Assembly (NCBI GenBank): GCA_000146465.1
Contig: CP001947.1
Length of the DNA: 64,000 nt
Reading direction: 5' to 3' (one strand)
Of this stretch, positions 7,524 through 48,055 are shown piece by piece (the stretch's first letter is position 1; each line of letters begins with the position of its first letter). The notes beneath the pieces were generated by a model. That model saw only the letters and a list, made by a program, of their open reading frames with translations. It ran no database searches and was not told where the DNA came from. Both the position numbers and the translations under genes were made by a program.

Positions 7524-8068
7524 TCAAGACGAGACTGCTCTGTTCGACAAGTTAAGTGCCTCTGCCTGCTCGGCAAGCTCTCGGGCTCTTTGCTCATCGG
7601 CCTTTCTCTTGATTATGCTATCTTTCATGTGGAATCTGTGCTTGAAAAGATGGCCCTTTGCCTGCTTGTAAAACACTCGGAAGTCTTCCTTGGTGATCTC
7701 TCCATTGGCCCTCATCTCCTTCAGCATCTTCCTCATTGCACGAATCTTCTTCATCCATAGCTCCTTCCTTGGCATTCTTGCATTGGCCGTACCAAAGCGC
7801 TTTCCAGGCCCCATGTGCCTCCCCTTCTTCTTGGCTGCCAGGCGCTTTCGGAGTCGTCCTCTGCTGGTGTGCTTGTCCTGCTTCATAATAATCACATTGT
7901 CTTGTATCAGCTGCCTAATCTGATCCCGAGTGGTTGCTCCGTTGAGCCTCTCAATTTCGTTGTTATCCAACCAAAGCTTCTTCTTCCCACATCCTAGGAT
8001 GTCTGCTGCCAAACGCCTGACTCTCTCCTCGTTCGACCTTCAAATTAGAAATGATCCATCACTTACAT
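7524..8068 (-). CDS. RPL19: 60S ribosomal protein L19e, interrupted by a 29-nt intron that splits the start codon (AT|G)
   Basis: Body matches L19e (GCGKKKLWLD...GRHMGPGKRFGTANARMP). There is no in-frame ATG for the conserved N-terminus. Upstream the minus strand reads AT-GTAAGTGATGGATCATTTCTAATTTGAAG-GTCGAACGAG... Splicing gives MSNEERVRRLAADILGCGKKK, which matches the canonical ...QKRLAASVL N-terminus. Exon 1 is about 8067-8068, the intron about 8038-8066. Confidence 0.8.
8038..8066 (-). other. spliceosomal intron (29 nt) of RPL19
   Basis: 5' GTAAGT, branch-like CTAAT, 3' AG. Removal restores the conserved L19 N-terminus in frame. Confidence 0.7.
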
Positions 8069-20187: not shown

Positions 20188-20632
20188 GGCTAAAGACCAA
20201 GAGAAGGTTTACATGCTTTTGGAACTAGAAAGGATCCGGCAGCTGAATATCCCGCACGTGTATGCATTTCCTACTGGAACTCTGGAATTCACATGTGCAA
20301 TGTTCCGAGGCTCGGACCATACTGTCTTCAAGCTAATAAAATCAGACATTTATGAGAAGTGGAGTGTCCTAATCGATGGGGAATGTAGTGAGGAAATGAA
20401 CAAGATGTCTGGCTCATGCGATGCACATATAACACTAGAAACAACTGTACAGACACTAAGCAGATGCCATAATACCAGTCTCTTTGGAAAGTCTAAAAAC
20501 ATCTTTCCATTTATTTCCGAAGGTTTTCCAAACAGAGAGAAAAATATTACAGCGCTTTTGCTCTTTGTTAAAAATAGATGTTCCAAGACAAATGGTTGTG
20601 GAGAGAAGATGGCTATTCAGATAAAAGAGTAG
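20180..20632 (+). CDS. hypothetical protein (about 150 aa)
   Basis: The start is ambiguous (ATGs at about 20180, 20186, 20213). The first codons overlap the start of the divergent minus-strand gene. No family recognised. Confidence 0.35.
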   Translation: MSMAKDQEKVYMLLELERIRQLNIPHVYAFPTGTLEFTCAMFRGSDHTVFKLIKSDIYEKWSVLIDGECSEEMNKMSGSCDAHITLETTVQTLSRCHNTSLFGKSKNIFPFISEGFPNREKNITALLLFVKNRCSKTNGCGEKMAIQIKE

Positions 20633-20663
20633 AAACAAACAGAAGCGAAGATAAGATGTTTAA

Positions 20664-21014
20664 TCATGCCAGTCCCTTTTCCTTTAGGAGCTCGTCCTCA
20701 ACTCTTTTCCTCAGCTTCATCTGGAATCTCTCGAAATCATTGGTTGTATCCTCCTCACTAATGCTTTCTGGAATGAGCTTTCCTATCTCTTCTGGACTAA
20801 GATCCTTAATGTCAAACGACTCATCCTCAAGGTGGAGATTAGATATAGAGCACATTTCCCTCTCTCCATCCTTCCTCTGGAGAAGTACAAAGGTTGCATC
20901 GATGATGCCAACAATTATGCCATATGTTTTTCTTTTTTCTTTGAGTGCAGGTGTCACAATCCTTCCCAGCCTTACTGTCTTCTAAAGTTAGCCAAAAAGA
21001 AGCTCACTTACCAT
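20664..21014 (-). CDS. RPL14: 60S ribosomal protein L14e with a 30-nt intron directly after the ATG
   Basis: The spliced product MKTVRLGRIVTPALKEKRKTYGIIVGIIDATFVLL...NDFERFQMKLRKR matches L14e (KOW-like N-terminus; TDFDRFKVMKAKK-type tail). ATG at 21012-21014, intron 20982-21011, exon 2 from 20981. Confidence 0.8.
20982..21011 (-). other. spliceosomal intron (30 nt) of RPL14
   Basis: ATG|GTAAGTGAGCTTCTTTTTGGCTAACTTTAG|AAGACAGTAAGG. Canonical 5' splice site, GCTAAC branch-like box, 3' AG. Restores the L14e N-terminus. Confidence 0.75.
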
Positions 21015-21061
21015 TTTTAGGGCAAATTTTTGTGTAGATTTAACCGTAGGAAAGTACACTG

Positions 21062-21379
21062 GTGAATCCCCAGGCACAGATGAAGATAACAGACTTGCAG
21101 AATGAGGTCAACCACCTCCTGTTTCTTTATTTCACATCTATAGGGGTCATCCAAAGAGATGCGGGACTAGGAGACATTTACGACAAGATGGAAGAGCTGA
21201 AGAGAGAGATTGATGACTGCCGAAAAAGGATTATGCGGCTCATGGACTCTGAGGAAGTGGATGTAGAACTCTGCAATGACTACAAAGAAATCATCACCGA
21301 GGGTAAGGAATTTGTGAGAGATGGGCTGAGTTTCCTTGACAAGCTTCTGAAGAAAGACTATGGACCTGGAAACTATTAA
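21062..21379 (+). CDS. hypothetical coiled-coil protein (105 aa)
   Basis: ATG-initiated. Heptad-rich, with a C-terminal KKDYGPGNY tail. No family recognised. Confidence 0.4.
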   Translation: MNPQAQMKITDLQNEVNHLLFLYFTSIGVIQRDAGLGDIYDKMEELKREIDDCRKRIMRLMDSEEVDVELCNDYKEIITEGKEFVRDGLSFLDKLLKKDYGPGNY

Positions 21380-46362: not shown

Positions 46363-47637
46363 ATGGATTTGGAGAAAGTACGTATTTCTCAAAAGAAGGT
46401 TATCAACATTGTATTTGTCGGCCATGTTGATGCAGGAAAGTCAACGATATGCGGGCAGATCCTTGTTCAAATGGGATTGGTAGATCCAAGGACATTGGAG
46501 AAGTATAAGGAGATGTCTCGAGAACAGAATAGAGAAAGTTGGTATTTGAGCTGGTGTCTGGACATCAATCCTGAAGAAAGAGAGAGGGGAAAGACTACAG
46601 AAGTAGGAACGGCATCGTTTGAGCTTCCTCACAGAAGAATAAATATACTAGACGCACCGGGGCATAACCAGTTTGTATTTGAGATGATAAATGGGGCCAA
46701 CCGAGCGGATGTGGGGATACTGGTTATATCTGCAAGGATAAACGAGTTTGAGGCGGGGTTTGAAAAGGGAGGTCAGACTAGAGAACACATCTTTTTGTTA
46801 AAGGCCGGAAGTGTCCAAAGGTTGATTGTACTAGTTAATAAGATGGATGATCCAAGTGTGGGATGGAACAAGAGTAGGTTCGATGAGATCAAGGACAAAG
46901 TCTCGGCATTTGTTAGAAGGATGTTTCCTGTCCCTGTATTTATTCCTGTTAGTGGATTTACTGGAGAATACATCAAGGACAAAGGATCATGCCCATGGTA
47001 CGATGGGGAATCTTTTCTTTCGGAGCTCGACAAGATAACAATCCCAAGAAGATCGGATGTGCCTTTGGCAATTACTGTTACAGAAAAGGTAAAGCTAATG
47101 GGAATGACGATTTTGTACGGGAAGGTTGAATGCGGAAAGGTAACTCCCGGGATGCCAATAAAAATCCTGCCACACAATACAAAGAACTTCATTTCGTCTA
47201 TAATGGATGATGAAGATGTTGAAATTGAGGAAGGGAATCCAGGAGATGTTGTGAAACTGAAGCTAAAGGAGGATCCAGATGATGTATCAGTTGGAACTAA
47301 AATACTAGATCTCAACAACATGGATTACAGATCTACACAGGAATTTACATGTGGATTAAACATACTCGACGTCGATACAATAATAAGCTCTGGGTATACA
47401 TGTATTCTTCATGTAGGAATTGCTACCGTTCAGTGCAAAATAAAAGAAATAAGGGACATCAATAACAAGAAGATCAGATTCTGCCGCCATGGAAGTAAGG
47501 TTCTTGCAAAGATAGTGGTTTCATCTCCTATCTGCGTTTTTCATGGTAACAAGGATGAAGAAGAAAGACAGAGATTTGCACTGAGGCTCGAGAGTAAAAC
47601 CATTGCTGTAGGTGTAATAAGAACCGTAAAAGAATAA
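46363..47637 (+). CDS. EF1-alpha-like translational GTPase of the eRF3/HBS1 subfamily
   Basis: GHVDAGKST, DAPGH, NKMD. GFEKGGQTREH is the eRF3/HBS1 signature. Beta-barrel domains II/III. 424 aa with no N-terminal extension. Confidence 0.8.
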   Translation: MDLEKVRISQKKVINIVFVGHVDAGKSTICGQILVQMGLVDPRTLEKYKEMSREQNRESWYLSWCLDINPEERERGKTTEVGTASFELPHRRINILDAPGHNQFVFEMINGANRADVGILVISARINEFEAGFEKGGQTREHIFLLKAGSVQRLIVLVNKMDDPSVGWNKSRFDEIKDKVSAFVRRMFPVPVFIPVSGFTGEYIKDKGSCPWYDGESFLSELDKITIPRRSDVPLAITVTEKVKLMGMTILYGKVECGKVTPGMPIKILPHNTKNFISSIMDDEDVEIEEGNPGDVVKLKLKEDPDDVSVGTKILDLNNMDYRSTQEFTCGLNILDVDTIISSGYTCILHVGIATVQCKIKEIRDINNKKIRFCRHGSKVLAKIVVSSPICVFHGNKDEEERQRFALRLESKTIAVGVIRTVKE

Positions 47638-47698: not shown

Positions 47699-48055
47699 TT
47701 AATTATGAGAGCTTACCCTGTTCGGATTGAATCCATATCTGATCTTTCTTCCTTGAGAAGAGCGGACTCTAACTATCTTGGCGTGGCACGCACAAGACAC
47801 GCAGAACTGTGACTTATAGCCCATCCTTGGAACTTCAAACACTTCGTAGATGGTTTTCTCTTTCAGATCATCAAATGAGGCCTGTTCAATGAGAGACTGA
47901 ATCCTAAATCTTTTGATTGCCTTATCCTTAGGTGTTACACTGCCGCACTTATCGCACTGGATGGGCTTCACACTTCCTCTGTTCTTCTTTGATCTCCCGT
48001 GGTTTCTTCTTTTAACTGTCTATAAAATTAGAATGCTTCGCCTATCACTTACCAT
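47699..48055 (-). CDS. RPS26: 40S ribosomal protein S26e with a 33-nt intron directly after the ATG
   Basis: ATG(48053-55)|GTAAGTGATAGGCGAAGCATTCTAATTTTATAG|ACAGTTAAAAGAAGAAACCACGGG... The spliced product [28 protein letters not shown]... matches S26e ([26 protein letters not shown]). The track ORF lacks this N-terminus and starts at an internal GTG. Confidence 0.85.
48020..48052 (-). other. spliceosomal intron (33 nt) of RPS26
   Basis: 5' GTAAGT, CTAAT branch-like box, 3' TAG. In-frame restoration of the universally conserved S26 N-terminus. Confidence 0.8.

What the first reader, a model, noticed from the sequence alone, without database searches (positions are those of the whole stretch)
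20664..21014. RPL14: 30-nt intron after the ATG, missed by ORF calling
The 97-aa track ORF starts at an in-frame GTG. Upstream is ATG|GTAAGTGAGCTTCTTTTTGGCTAACTTTAG|AAGACAGTAAGG... Splicing produces MKTVRLGRIVTPALKEKRKTYGIIVGIIDATFVLL..., which is the KOW-like N-terminus of ribosomal protein L14e. The C-terminus NDFERFQMKLRKR also matches L14e. Without the intron the gene cannot be identified and has no ATG.
Basis: partly seen in the sequence, partly recalled or inferred. Interest (0 to 1): 0.65.

Follow-up and report, generated by a model that had tools for sequence, protein, structure and literature searches.

The report
Known microsporidian eL14 gene with mini-intron

Summary
On the minus strand an ATG (21014..21012) is followed by a 30-nt GT-AG intron (21011..20982, GTAAGT...CTAAC...TAG) and a 318-nt exon 2 (20981..20664). 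Splicing gives a 106-aa protein. The window is Encephalitozoon intestinalis chromosome VI. That exact protein is already in GenBank as Eint_061145 (AHL30120.1). It is 82% identical, end to end, to chain M4 of the E. cuniculi ribosome structure (7QEP, ECU06_1215). Nicholson et al. 2022 identified that chain as a highly diverged eL14 that homology searches had missed. Six Encephalitozoon/Ordospora genomes carry the intron at the same position. Its length is 28, 30 or 32 nt, every unspliced reading hits in-frame stops, and every spliced product is 106 aa. The gene has the AAATTT + CCC motif typical of microsporidian ribosomal-protein promoters. Two other ribosomal-protein genes in the window (L19, S26) have the same intron type, and my splice models for them reproduce the annotated proteins exactly. 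The Pfam L14e profile does fail (13.8 bits against a 30.5 cut-off), but that is the known divergence. A family profile and a predicted fold both reach canonical eL14. Splicing in E. intestinalis itself was not tested. Verdict: correct reading, already known, low interest.

The parts
21015..21031 (-). Promoter-proximal motif AAAAATTTGCCCTAAAA (AAATTT-like signal plus CCC-like signal), directly upstream of the ATG
   Evidence: PMC2803860 describes this motif pair upstream of ribosomal-protein start codons in microsporidia; its E. cuniculi S8 example is AAAAAAATTTGCCCTGAA. All 6 such sites in the window precede translation genes, 5 of them ribosomal proteins. The motif is conserved in all six orthologous loci.
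21012..21014 (-). Exon 1 coding part: the ATG start codon only
   Evidence: The same arrangement is annotated in E. cuniculi and E. hellem: a 351-nt gene span for a 106-aa product. The spliced translation equals P0002 and P0003 exactly.
20982..21011 (-). 30-nt spliceosomal intron GTAAGTGAGCTTCTTTTTGGCTAACTTTAG. 5' splice site GTAAGT at 21011..21006; branch motif CTAAC at 20991..20987 (branch A at 20988, 6 nt from the intron end); 3' splice site TAG at 20984..20982
   Evidence: Orthologous introns are 30, 30, 30, 32 and 28 nt with the same signals, and all have in-frame stops if retained. The intron interior is 21-79% identical between species, against 81-93% for the first 27 nt of exon 2.
20664..20981 (-). 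Exon 2: codons 2-106 of eL14 plus the TGA stop (20666..20664)
20955..20957 (-). GTG = Val10, the false start of the mechanical 97-aa ORF
   Evidence: This codon is ATC (Ile) in Ordospora colligata, so it cannot be a conserved start. It lies inside predicted strand beta-1, residues 8-12.

Best explanation
This is the single-copy gene for large-subunit ribosomal protein eL14 of Encephalitozoon intestinalis (Eint_061145). It is transcribed from a short divergent promoter that carries the microsporidian ribosomal-protein motif pair (AAATTT-like, then CCC-like). By analogy with E. cuniculi, the 5' UTR is only a few bases long. The coding sequence is split right after the ATG by a 30-nt U2-type GT-AG intron. 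Its signals are a consensus 5' site (GTAAGT), a yeast-like branch motif (CTAAC) and a TAG acceptor 6 nt after the branch A. Removing the intron joins the ATG to AAG ACA GTA..., giving a 106-aa protein. That protein has an SH3/KOW-like five-strand barrel (residues 8-56), a short helix, and a C-terminal helix carrying the DFERF motif. It sits in the 60S subunit at the eL14 position. An unspliced transcript can only give an 8-residue peptide, because the branch-site TAA and the acceptor TAG are in-frame stops. Shown here: the sequence anatomy, conservation of the intron, identity of the product with the annotated protein, and orthology to a chain built into a solved ribosome. Inferred: that splicing happens in E. 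intestinalis, that the first AG is the acceptor, the UTR length, and the ribosomal location in this species.
For: Exact anatomy is. The spliced product is byte-identical to NCBI AHL30120.1, Eint_061145. The neighbouring genes are Eint_061150 and Eint_061160, which fixes the organism. Against solved structures, 7qep_M4 (ECU06_1215) matches at E 4.7e-53 over 1-106/1-106, 6rm3_LM0 eL14 at 6.9e-29 and 6zu5_LM0 eL14 at 9.4e-19. PMC8807834 states that this E. cuniculi protein (M970_061160) is eL14, retained but undetectable by homology search, and found in the cryo-EM map. 7qep_M4 has 104 modelled residues of 106. So residues upstream of Val10 are present in the orthologous protein, and the only upstream ATG is the one before the intron. 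The orthologue profile reaches canonical eL14/L14e at E 3.8e-5 to 1e-3, with alignments starting at query residue 1-2. The AF2 model (pLDDT 76.8) is a 5-strand barrel plus helices, and its Foldseek top hits are nearly all eL14 chains. Synteny is the same in E. cuniculi, E. hellem, Ordospora and two unnamed assemblies: TruD, TPR protein, 99-aa gene, eL14, about 140-aa gene, SAP protein. Intron lengths are 30/30/30/30/32/28, so two are not multiples of three; all six spliced products are 106 aa. Codons 2-10 change mostly synonymously or conservatively: ACA/ACG, GTA/GTC, CTG/CTT, AGG/AGA, ATT/ATC, K/R, V/I. As an internal control, the same splice rules applied to the L19 and S26 genes of this window reproduce the annotated proteins exactly. 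ECU06_1215 is expressed at FPKM 115/91/87 in E. cuniculi. The intron matches the class described for Encephalitozoon: very short, GT-AG, usually directly after the initiator ATG, mostly in ribosomal-protein genes (PMC6349667; PMC3629993).
Against: There is no transcript evidence for E. intestinalis. A search for an intron-less junction sequence in public metagenome contigs found nothing, which is uninformative. Pfam Ribosomal_L14e is below its gathering cut-off (13.8 against 30.5 bits). I could not confirm from held text that the ECU06_1215 intron was one of those whose junction reads were counted in Grisdale 2013; the intron list is a figure or file that is not held. Short Encephalitozoon introns are reported to be spliced on average in fewer than 20% of transcripts, so most transcripts may be unspliced. 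One predicted 27-nt in-frame intron in another E. cuniculi ribosomal-protein gene was found not to be spliced (PMC2803860); the text found does not say whether that intron contains stop codons.
Confidence: 0.95

Rival explanations
1. There is no intron. The gene is the 97-aa ORF, translated from the GTG at 20957 or another non-AUG codon, and the upstream ATG plus GTAAGT...TAG is a coincidence.
For: The ORF list gives exactly this ORF. ORF-calling pipelines produce the 97/98-aa form in several assemblies. The splice motifs alone are not statistically rare. One predicted short in-frame intron in E. cuniculi was reported unspliced.
Against: The GTG is ATC in Ordospora. The nine codons upstream of it evolve like coding sequence and are conserved in six genomes. 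They align with the N-terminus of canonical eL14 and archaeal L14e. The E. cuniculi chain in 7QEP has 104 of 106 residues modelled. In two genomes the intron length is not a multiple of three, yet the ATG is retained at the same distance from the promoter motif.
Confidence: 0.02
2. The protein is not eL14 but a microsporidia-specific protein, or another member of the KOW-like L14e/L6e/L27e superfamily.
For: Pfam Ribosomal_L14e is below cut-off and matches only residues 79-94. NCBI names the protein 'uncharacterized'. UniRef gives only the superfamily-level name 'L14E/L6E/L27E'.
Against: Chains labelled eL14 in three independent microsporidian ribosome structures are full-length homologues. The published structural assignment is explicit. 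In the profile search nearly all of the 53 hits are eL14/L14e chains, and none is eL6 or eL27. The Foldseek hits are nearly all eL14 chains. The gene also has the ribosomal-protein promoter motif.
Confidence: 0.02
3. The intron is real but a different acceptor is used: the AG 3 nt downstream (TTTAGAAG|) would give a 105-aa protein lacking Lys2, or the AG 7 nt downstream would give a frameshifted dead-end product.
For: Three nested AG ends fit the pattern. Rare use of downstream alternative acceptors (<5% of reads) is reported for three E. cuniculi genes.
Against: The first AG after the branch point is the one that gives a 106-aa product in all six species. In the orthologues the next AG (TAGAG|) would shift the frame. 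The annotated E. cuniculi, E. hellem and E. intestinalis proteins use the first AG.
Confidence: 0.03

Closest known systems
Eint_061145 of Encephalitozoon intestinalis ATCC 50506 (GenBank AHL30120.1; also KAL7345618.1 and others)
   Same: The protein sequence is identical to the spliced product (106 aa). The flanking genes are Eint_061150 and Eint_061160. This is the same gene.
   Different: Nothing differs in sequence. NCBI still names it 'uncharacterized protein'. The intermediate locus tag and the later accession series (AHL, against ADM for its neighbours) suggest it was added after the 2010 annotation; that is my inference.
E. cuniculi eL14 = ECU06_1215 / M970_061160, chain M4 of PDB 7QEP (Nicholson et al. 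2022, PMC8807834)
   Same: 82% identical over all 106 residues. The gene span is the same 351 nt with a 30-nt intron after the ATG, and the neighbouring genes are the same. It was shown by cryo-EM to occupy the eL14 site.
   Different: It is from a different species. The intron interior is only 57% identical (63% over the whole intron), and its branch context is ACTAAC rather than GCTAAC.
Short 5'-biased spliceosomal introns of Encephalitozoon ribosomal-protein genes (Katinka 2001; Lee 2010; Grisdale 2013, as summarised in PMC6349667 and PMC3629993)
   Same: [quoted passage not shown] The L19 and S26 introns in this same window are of the same type.
   Different: None found.
Canonical eukaryotic eL14 (Pfam PF01929 Ribosomal_L14e) and archaeal L14e
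   Same: An N-terminal SH3/KOW-like barrel and a C-terminal helix with the DFERF motif. The family profile reaches them at E about 4e-5, and the fold matches.
   Different: This protein is much shorter than canonical eukaryotic eL14, which is mostly about 125-140 aa in the solved chains. It is below the Pfam gathering score. In E. cuniculi the rRNA-binding helices are reported to have degenerated after loss of expansion segment ES39L, with only 18% identity to yeast.

Membership tests
Ribosomal protein eL14 (L14e) | Scores above the curated gathering cut-off of Pfam PF01929 Ribosomal_L14e | tested here: not met
   13.8 bits against a cut-off of 30.5, and only residues 79-94 match. This is the published behaviour of microsporidian eL14.
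Ribosomal protein eL14 (L14e) | Full-length homology to a protein experimentally placed at the eL14 position of a ribosome | tested here: met
   7qep_M4 at E 4.7e-53, 1-106/1-106, 82% identity; 6rm3_LM0 at 6.9e-29; 6zu5_LM0 at 9.4e-19. The assignment is described in PMC8807834.
Ribosomal protein eL14 (L14e) | Detectable sequence relationship to canonical (non-microsporidian) eL14 / archaeal L14e | tested here: met
   The profile of 9 microsporidian orthologues gives plant eL14z at 3.8e-5, archaeal L14e 2joy at 4.3e-5 and 2kds at 1e-4. Nearly all listed hits are eL14.
Ribosomal protein eL14 (L14e) | SH3/KOW-like beta-barrel followed by a C-terminal helix | tested here: met
   The AF2 model (pLDDT 76.8) has strands 8-12, 22-27, 32-37, 42-46 and 50-56, and helices 64-70 and 83-102. 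Foldseek hits are eL14 chains. Archaeal L14e superposes at rmsd 2.7-2.8 over 68-75 columns.
Ribosomal protein eL14 (L14e) | Physically part of the 60S subunit in this organism | not testable with these tools
   It is shown only for the E. cuniculi, V. necatrix and P. locustae orthologues.
Encephalitozoon short spliceosomal intron | GT-AG boundaries with a strict GTAAGT 5' site and a YTAAY branch motif a few bases from the 3' end | tested here: met
   The intron is GTAAGT...CTAAC...TTTAG, with the branch A 6 nt from the end. The same holds in the window's L19 and S26 introns.
Encephalitozoon short spliceosomal intron | Length in the 22-76 nt range and a position at the extreme 5' end of the coding sequence | tested here: met
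   It is 30 nt and lies directly after the ATG.
Encephalitozoon short spliceosomal intron | Conserved position in orthologues, non-coding mode of evolution, and an intact reading frame only after removal | tested here: met
   Six genomes have lengths 30/30/30/30/32/28. All have in-frame stops when unspliced, and all spliced products are 106 aa. The intron interior diverges faster than the flanking exon.
Encephalitozoon short spliceosomal intron | Spliced junction observed in RNA | not testable with these tools
   No E. intestinalis RNA data were reachable. A junction-sequence scan of metagenome contigs gave 0 hits. For E. cuniculi, the paper states that all annotated introns are spliced, but I could not verify that this intron was in that set.
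Microsporidian ribosomal-protein gene promoter class | AAATTT-like signal followed by a CCC-like signal immediately upstream of the ATG | tested here: met
   AAAAATTTGCCCTAAAA is followed directly by ATG. The definition is in PMC2803860. Five of the six such sites in the window precede ribosomal-protein genes.

The most novel reading that the evidence does not exclude
The intron acts as a dosage throttle rather than as inert leftover sequence. The TAG acceptor is in frame with the ATG in the four genomes with a 30-nt intron, and a retained intron stops translation in all six. Short Encephalitozoon introns are reported to be removed from only a minority of transcripts. So eL14 output, and that of the similarly built L19 and S26 genes, could be set or regulated by splicing efficiency, as in the intron-dependent autoregulation of some yeast ribosomal-protein genes. 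Nothing here tests this.
Probability: 0.1. Interest if true: 0.35.

Novelty: already known. Interest (0 to 1): 0.08.

Why it matters
It matters little as a discovery. The gene model with this intron is in GenBank for E. intestinalis, E. cuniculi and E. hellem, and the eL14 identity of the orthologue was published in 2022. It is useful as a calibration case. A reader working from raw sequence recovered a gene that prokaryote-style ORF calling truncates, and that Pfam-based annotation cannot name. Two small practical points follow. First, the NCBI product name for Eint_061145 (and for EHEL_061160, 'hypothetical protein') could be updated to eL14. Second, the Ordospora colligata model OCOL_000771 (90 aa) appears to be truncated, because a 28-nt intron after the true ATG was missed.

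Tried and rejected
(1) Pfam scan of the spliced and unspliced products. Ribosomal_L14e was sub-threshold in both. I rejected this as a refutation because of the structural orthologues and the published divergence. (2) Motif statistics alone. ATGGTAAGT and a loose intron pattern are not significantly enriched, so I did not rely on them. (3) A full-text search for 'ECU06_1215' found no paper. The Grisdale 2013 supplement has its expression values, but the intron table is not held as text. (4) Lee et al. 2010 (PMC3809491) and Pombert et al. 2012 (PMC3412028), which probably document when this intron was found, are not held. (5) A scan of metagenome contigs for an intron-less junction sequence, degenerate across Encephalitozoon species, gave 0 hits. 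(7) I considered the antisense ORF 20578..20985 (+, 135 aa). It is not among the called genes of any orthologous locus and lies wholly opposite the eL14 gene, so I treat it as spurious.

Full report
WHAT IS IN THE SEQUENCE. On the minus strand, the mechanical ORF 20664..20957 is 97 aa and begins at a GTG. Reading further upstream on the same strand gives AAAAATTTGCCCTAAAA, then ATG (21014..21012). Next comes GTAAGTGAGCTTCTTTTTGGCTAACTTTAG (30 nt, 21011..20982), then AAG ACA GTA AGG CTG GGA AGG ATT GTG... from 20981. Joining the ATG to 20981 gives a 321-nt coding sequence and a 106-aa protein, MKTVRLGRIVTPALKEKRKTYGIIVGIIDATFVLLQRKDGEREMCSISNLHLEDESFDIKDLSPEEIGKLIPESISEEDTTNDFERFQMKLRKRVEDELLKEKGLA. 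The intron length is a multiple of three, but retaining it is not harmless. In the ATG frame it reads MVSELLFG*L*, and the two stops are the TAA of the branch motif and the TAG of the acceptor.

IS IT MORE THAN CHANCE? The motifs alone are not. ATGGTAAGT occurs twice in the window against 0.5 expected, and 9 of 100 shuffles reach two. A loose intron pattern occurs 5 times against about 10 in shuffles. The strict pattern GTAAGT-N(5-35)-CTAAC-N(1-10)-AG occurs only at this site, against 0.3 expected. The case therefore rests on the combination of features and on comparative data.

ORGANISM AND ANNOTATION STATUS. An exact-sequence look-up shows that the spliced 106-aa product is already in public databases. 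It is Eint_061145 of Encephalitozoon intestinalis ATCC 50506 (AHL30120.1 and later assemblies). NCBI names it 'uncharacterized protein' and UniRef names it 'Ribosomal protein L14E/L6E/L27E'. The neighbouring 679-aa and 99-aa proteins are Eint_061160 and Eint_061150. The window's G+C of 40.6% fits the 41.4% reported for that genome. So the statement 'missed by ORF calling' is true of mechanical ORF calling, but the curated record has this gene model. Logan-derived ORF calls in the protein collection do give the 97/98-aa truncations.

IDENTITY OF THE PROTEIN. Pfam's Ribosomal_L14e model scores only 13.8 bits (cut-off 30.5) and covers just the DFERF helix. The score is the same with or without the nine N-terminal residues. 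Against the sequences of solved structures the picture is clear. Chain M4 of the E. cuniculi ribosome (7QEP, 'ECU06_1215 protein') matches at E 4.7e-53 over 1-106 to 1-106 with 82% identity. The chains labelled eL14 in the Vairimorpha necatrix (6RM3) and Paranosema locustae (6ZU5) ribosomes match at 6.9e-29 and 9.4e-19. Nicholson et al. 2022 (PMC8807834) discuss this protein directly. eL14 had been predicted lost from E. cuniculi, was annotated as hypothetical protein M970_061160, and was recognised only in the cryo-EM map. Its sequence is 18% identical to yeast eL14, after loss of rRNA expansion segment ES39L. A profile built from nine microsporidian orthologues reaches canonical plant eL14 (3.8e-5) and archaeal L14e (4.3e-5, 1e-4), and nearly all of its 53 listed hits are eL14 chains. 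Those alignments start at query residue 1-2, so the residues encoded upstream of the GTG belong to the conserved domain. An AlphaFold2 model (pLDDT 76.8) shows a five-strand barrel (strands 8-12, 22-27, 32-37, 42-46, 50-56) and two helices. Foldseek against the PDB returns 7qep_M4 first (1.3e-12), then eL14 chains from microsporidian, trypanosomatid, plant, animal, yeast and archaeal ribosomes.

EVIDENCE FOR THE INTRON. (a) In GenBank the E. cuniculi and E. hellem orthologues span 351 nt for a 106-aa product. Applying 'ATG + 30-nt intron' to those loci reproduces P0002 and P0003 exactly. (b) I recovered the locus from six genomes: the window, E. cuniculi, E. hellem, two unnamed Logan assemblies and Ordospora colligata. 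All are in the same gene neighbourhood. All have the promoter motif, then ATG, then GTA[A/T]GT...CTAA[C/T]...AG, with the branch A 6-8 nt from the intron end. Intron lengths are 30, 30, 30, 30, 32 and 28 nt. Every unspliced reading hits stops, and every spliced product is 106 aa. Indels that are not multiples of three are tolerated only inside the proposed intron. (c) Between the four 30-nt introns the interior is 21-79% identical, while the first 27 nt of exon 2 (upstream of the GTG) are 81-93% identical. The differences there are synonymous or conservative. (d) The GTG is ATC in Ordospora, so it is not a conserved start. (e) The 7QEP chain has 104 of its 106 residues modelled. The N-terminal extension therefore exists in the orthologous protein, and the only ATG that can supply it is the one before the intron. 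(f) Internal control: two other genes in this window have the same layout. An S26 gene has ATG 48055..48053 and a 33-nt intron 48052..48020. An L19 gene has a 29-nt intron 8066..8038 that splits the start codon as AT|G. My spliced translations equal the annotated E. intestinalis proteins ADM11746.1 and ADM11708.1 exactly. (g) The intron fits the published description of the class: extremely short, GT-AG, usually starting directly after the initiator ATG, mainly in ribosomal-protein genes, 22-76 nt.

PROMOTER CONTEXT. AAAAATTTGCCCTAAAA directly before the ATG is the AAATTT-like plus CCC-like signal pair that Peyretaillade et al. 2009 found upstream of ribosomal-protein start codons in five microsporidia. 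They also reported 5' UTRs under 7 nt. The window has six such sites. They precede L19, S18/uS13, L36e, eL14, S26 and an EF-Tu-family GTPase. This evidence is independent of protein homology, and it supports both the ATG at 21014 as the true start and the gene's place in the ribosomal-protein regulatory class.

MECHANISM. The following is inferred. Transcription starts a few bases upstream of the ATG. The reduced microsporidian spliceosome recognises GUAAGU and the CUAAC branch site and uses the first downstream AG. The spliced mRNA encodes eL14, which assembles into the 60S subunit at a site reduced by loss of ES39L. The following is shown here: the anatomy, its conservation, and orthology to a protein placed in a ribosome structure. 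Splicing in E. intestinalis itself is not shown. The orthologue is expressed in E. cuniculi (FPKM 115/91/87), and that study states that all annotated introns are spliced. I could not verify that this intron was in its list. Short introns there average under 20% splicing, so many transcripts may be unproductive.

RIVALS. A GTG-initiated intronless 97-aa gene, a non-eL14 identity, and an alternative acceptor are each contradicted by the data above. I give them 2-3% each.

VERDICT. Its proposed refutation test (the L14e HMM) would have misled, because Pfam fails on this family for known reasons. The feature is already known, both as an annotated gene model and as a published identification, so it is of low interest as a finding.

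Noticed in passing
window 7524..8068 (-): This is the ribosomal protein L19 gene. A 29-nt intron (8066..8038, GTAAGTGATGGATCATTTCTAATTTGAAG) splits the start codon itself as AT|G. The ORF list shows only a 162-aa TTG ORF. The spliced 171-aa product equals the annotated E. intestinalis L19 (ADM11708.1).
   Followed up: yes
window 47699..48055 (-): This is the ribosomal protein S26 gene. It has a 33-nt intron directly after the ATG (48052..48020, GTAAGTGATAGGCGAAGCATTCTAATTTTATAG; branch motif TCTAAT). The spliced 107-aa product equals the annotated E. intestinalis S26 (ADM11746.1). The upstream motif is AAAATTTTTGCCCTTAAGA.
   Followed up: yes
L009:1400-1773 (Ordospora colligata GCA_052575955.1, JBLVQE010000004.1): The orthologue is annotated as the 90-aa 'hypothetical protein OCOL_000771', starting at an internal Met. 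The locus has AAATTTTGCCC...ATG followed by a 28-nt GTATGT...CTAAT...AAG intron. Splicing gives a 106-aa eL14 (MRTIRLGRIITPEIKEMRNTY...). The deposited model appears truncated because the intron was missed.
   Followed up: partly
window 8066, 10261, 10641, 21012, 46341, 48053 (positions of the ATG after the motif): The AAATTT...CCC...ATG motif occurs at six places. Five precede ribosomal-protein genes (L19, S18/uS13, L36e, eL14, S26). One lies upstream of an EF-Tu-family GTPase gene (46363..47637 +). There the motif's own ATG (46341) opens only a 29-codon ORF in another frame, 22 nt before the long ORF's ATG. I did not resolve whether that is a short upstream ORF or a mis-assigned start.
   Followed up: partly
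L008 (Logan SRR21633403 contig, 79.6 kb) and L007 (Logan SRR23946965 contig, 174 kb): These are two unnamed assemblies with the same gene order and an eL14 orthologue. L008 is clearly more G+C-rich, 68% identical in protein, and has a 32-nt intron. L007 is closest to E. hellem (possibly E. romaleae). No NCBI-annotated copy of either protein was in the collection.
   Followed up: no
window 21080..21379 (+): The divergently transcribed 99-aa neighbour Eint_061150 starts only about 65 bp from the eL14 ATG. It is conserved in all the orthologous loci but has no Pfam match at E <= 0.01 and is named 'uncharacterized'.
   Followed up: partly
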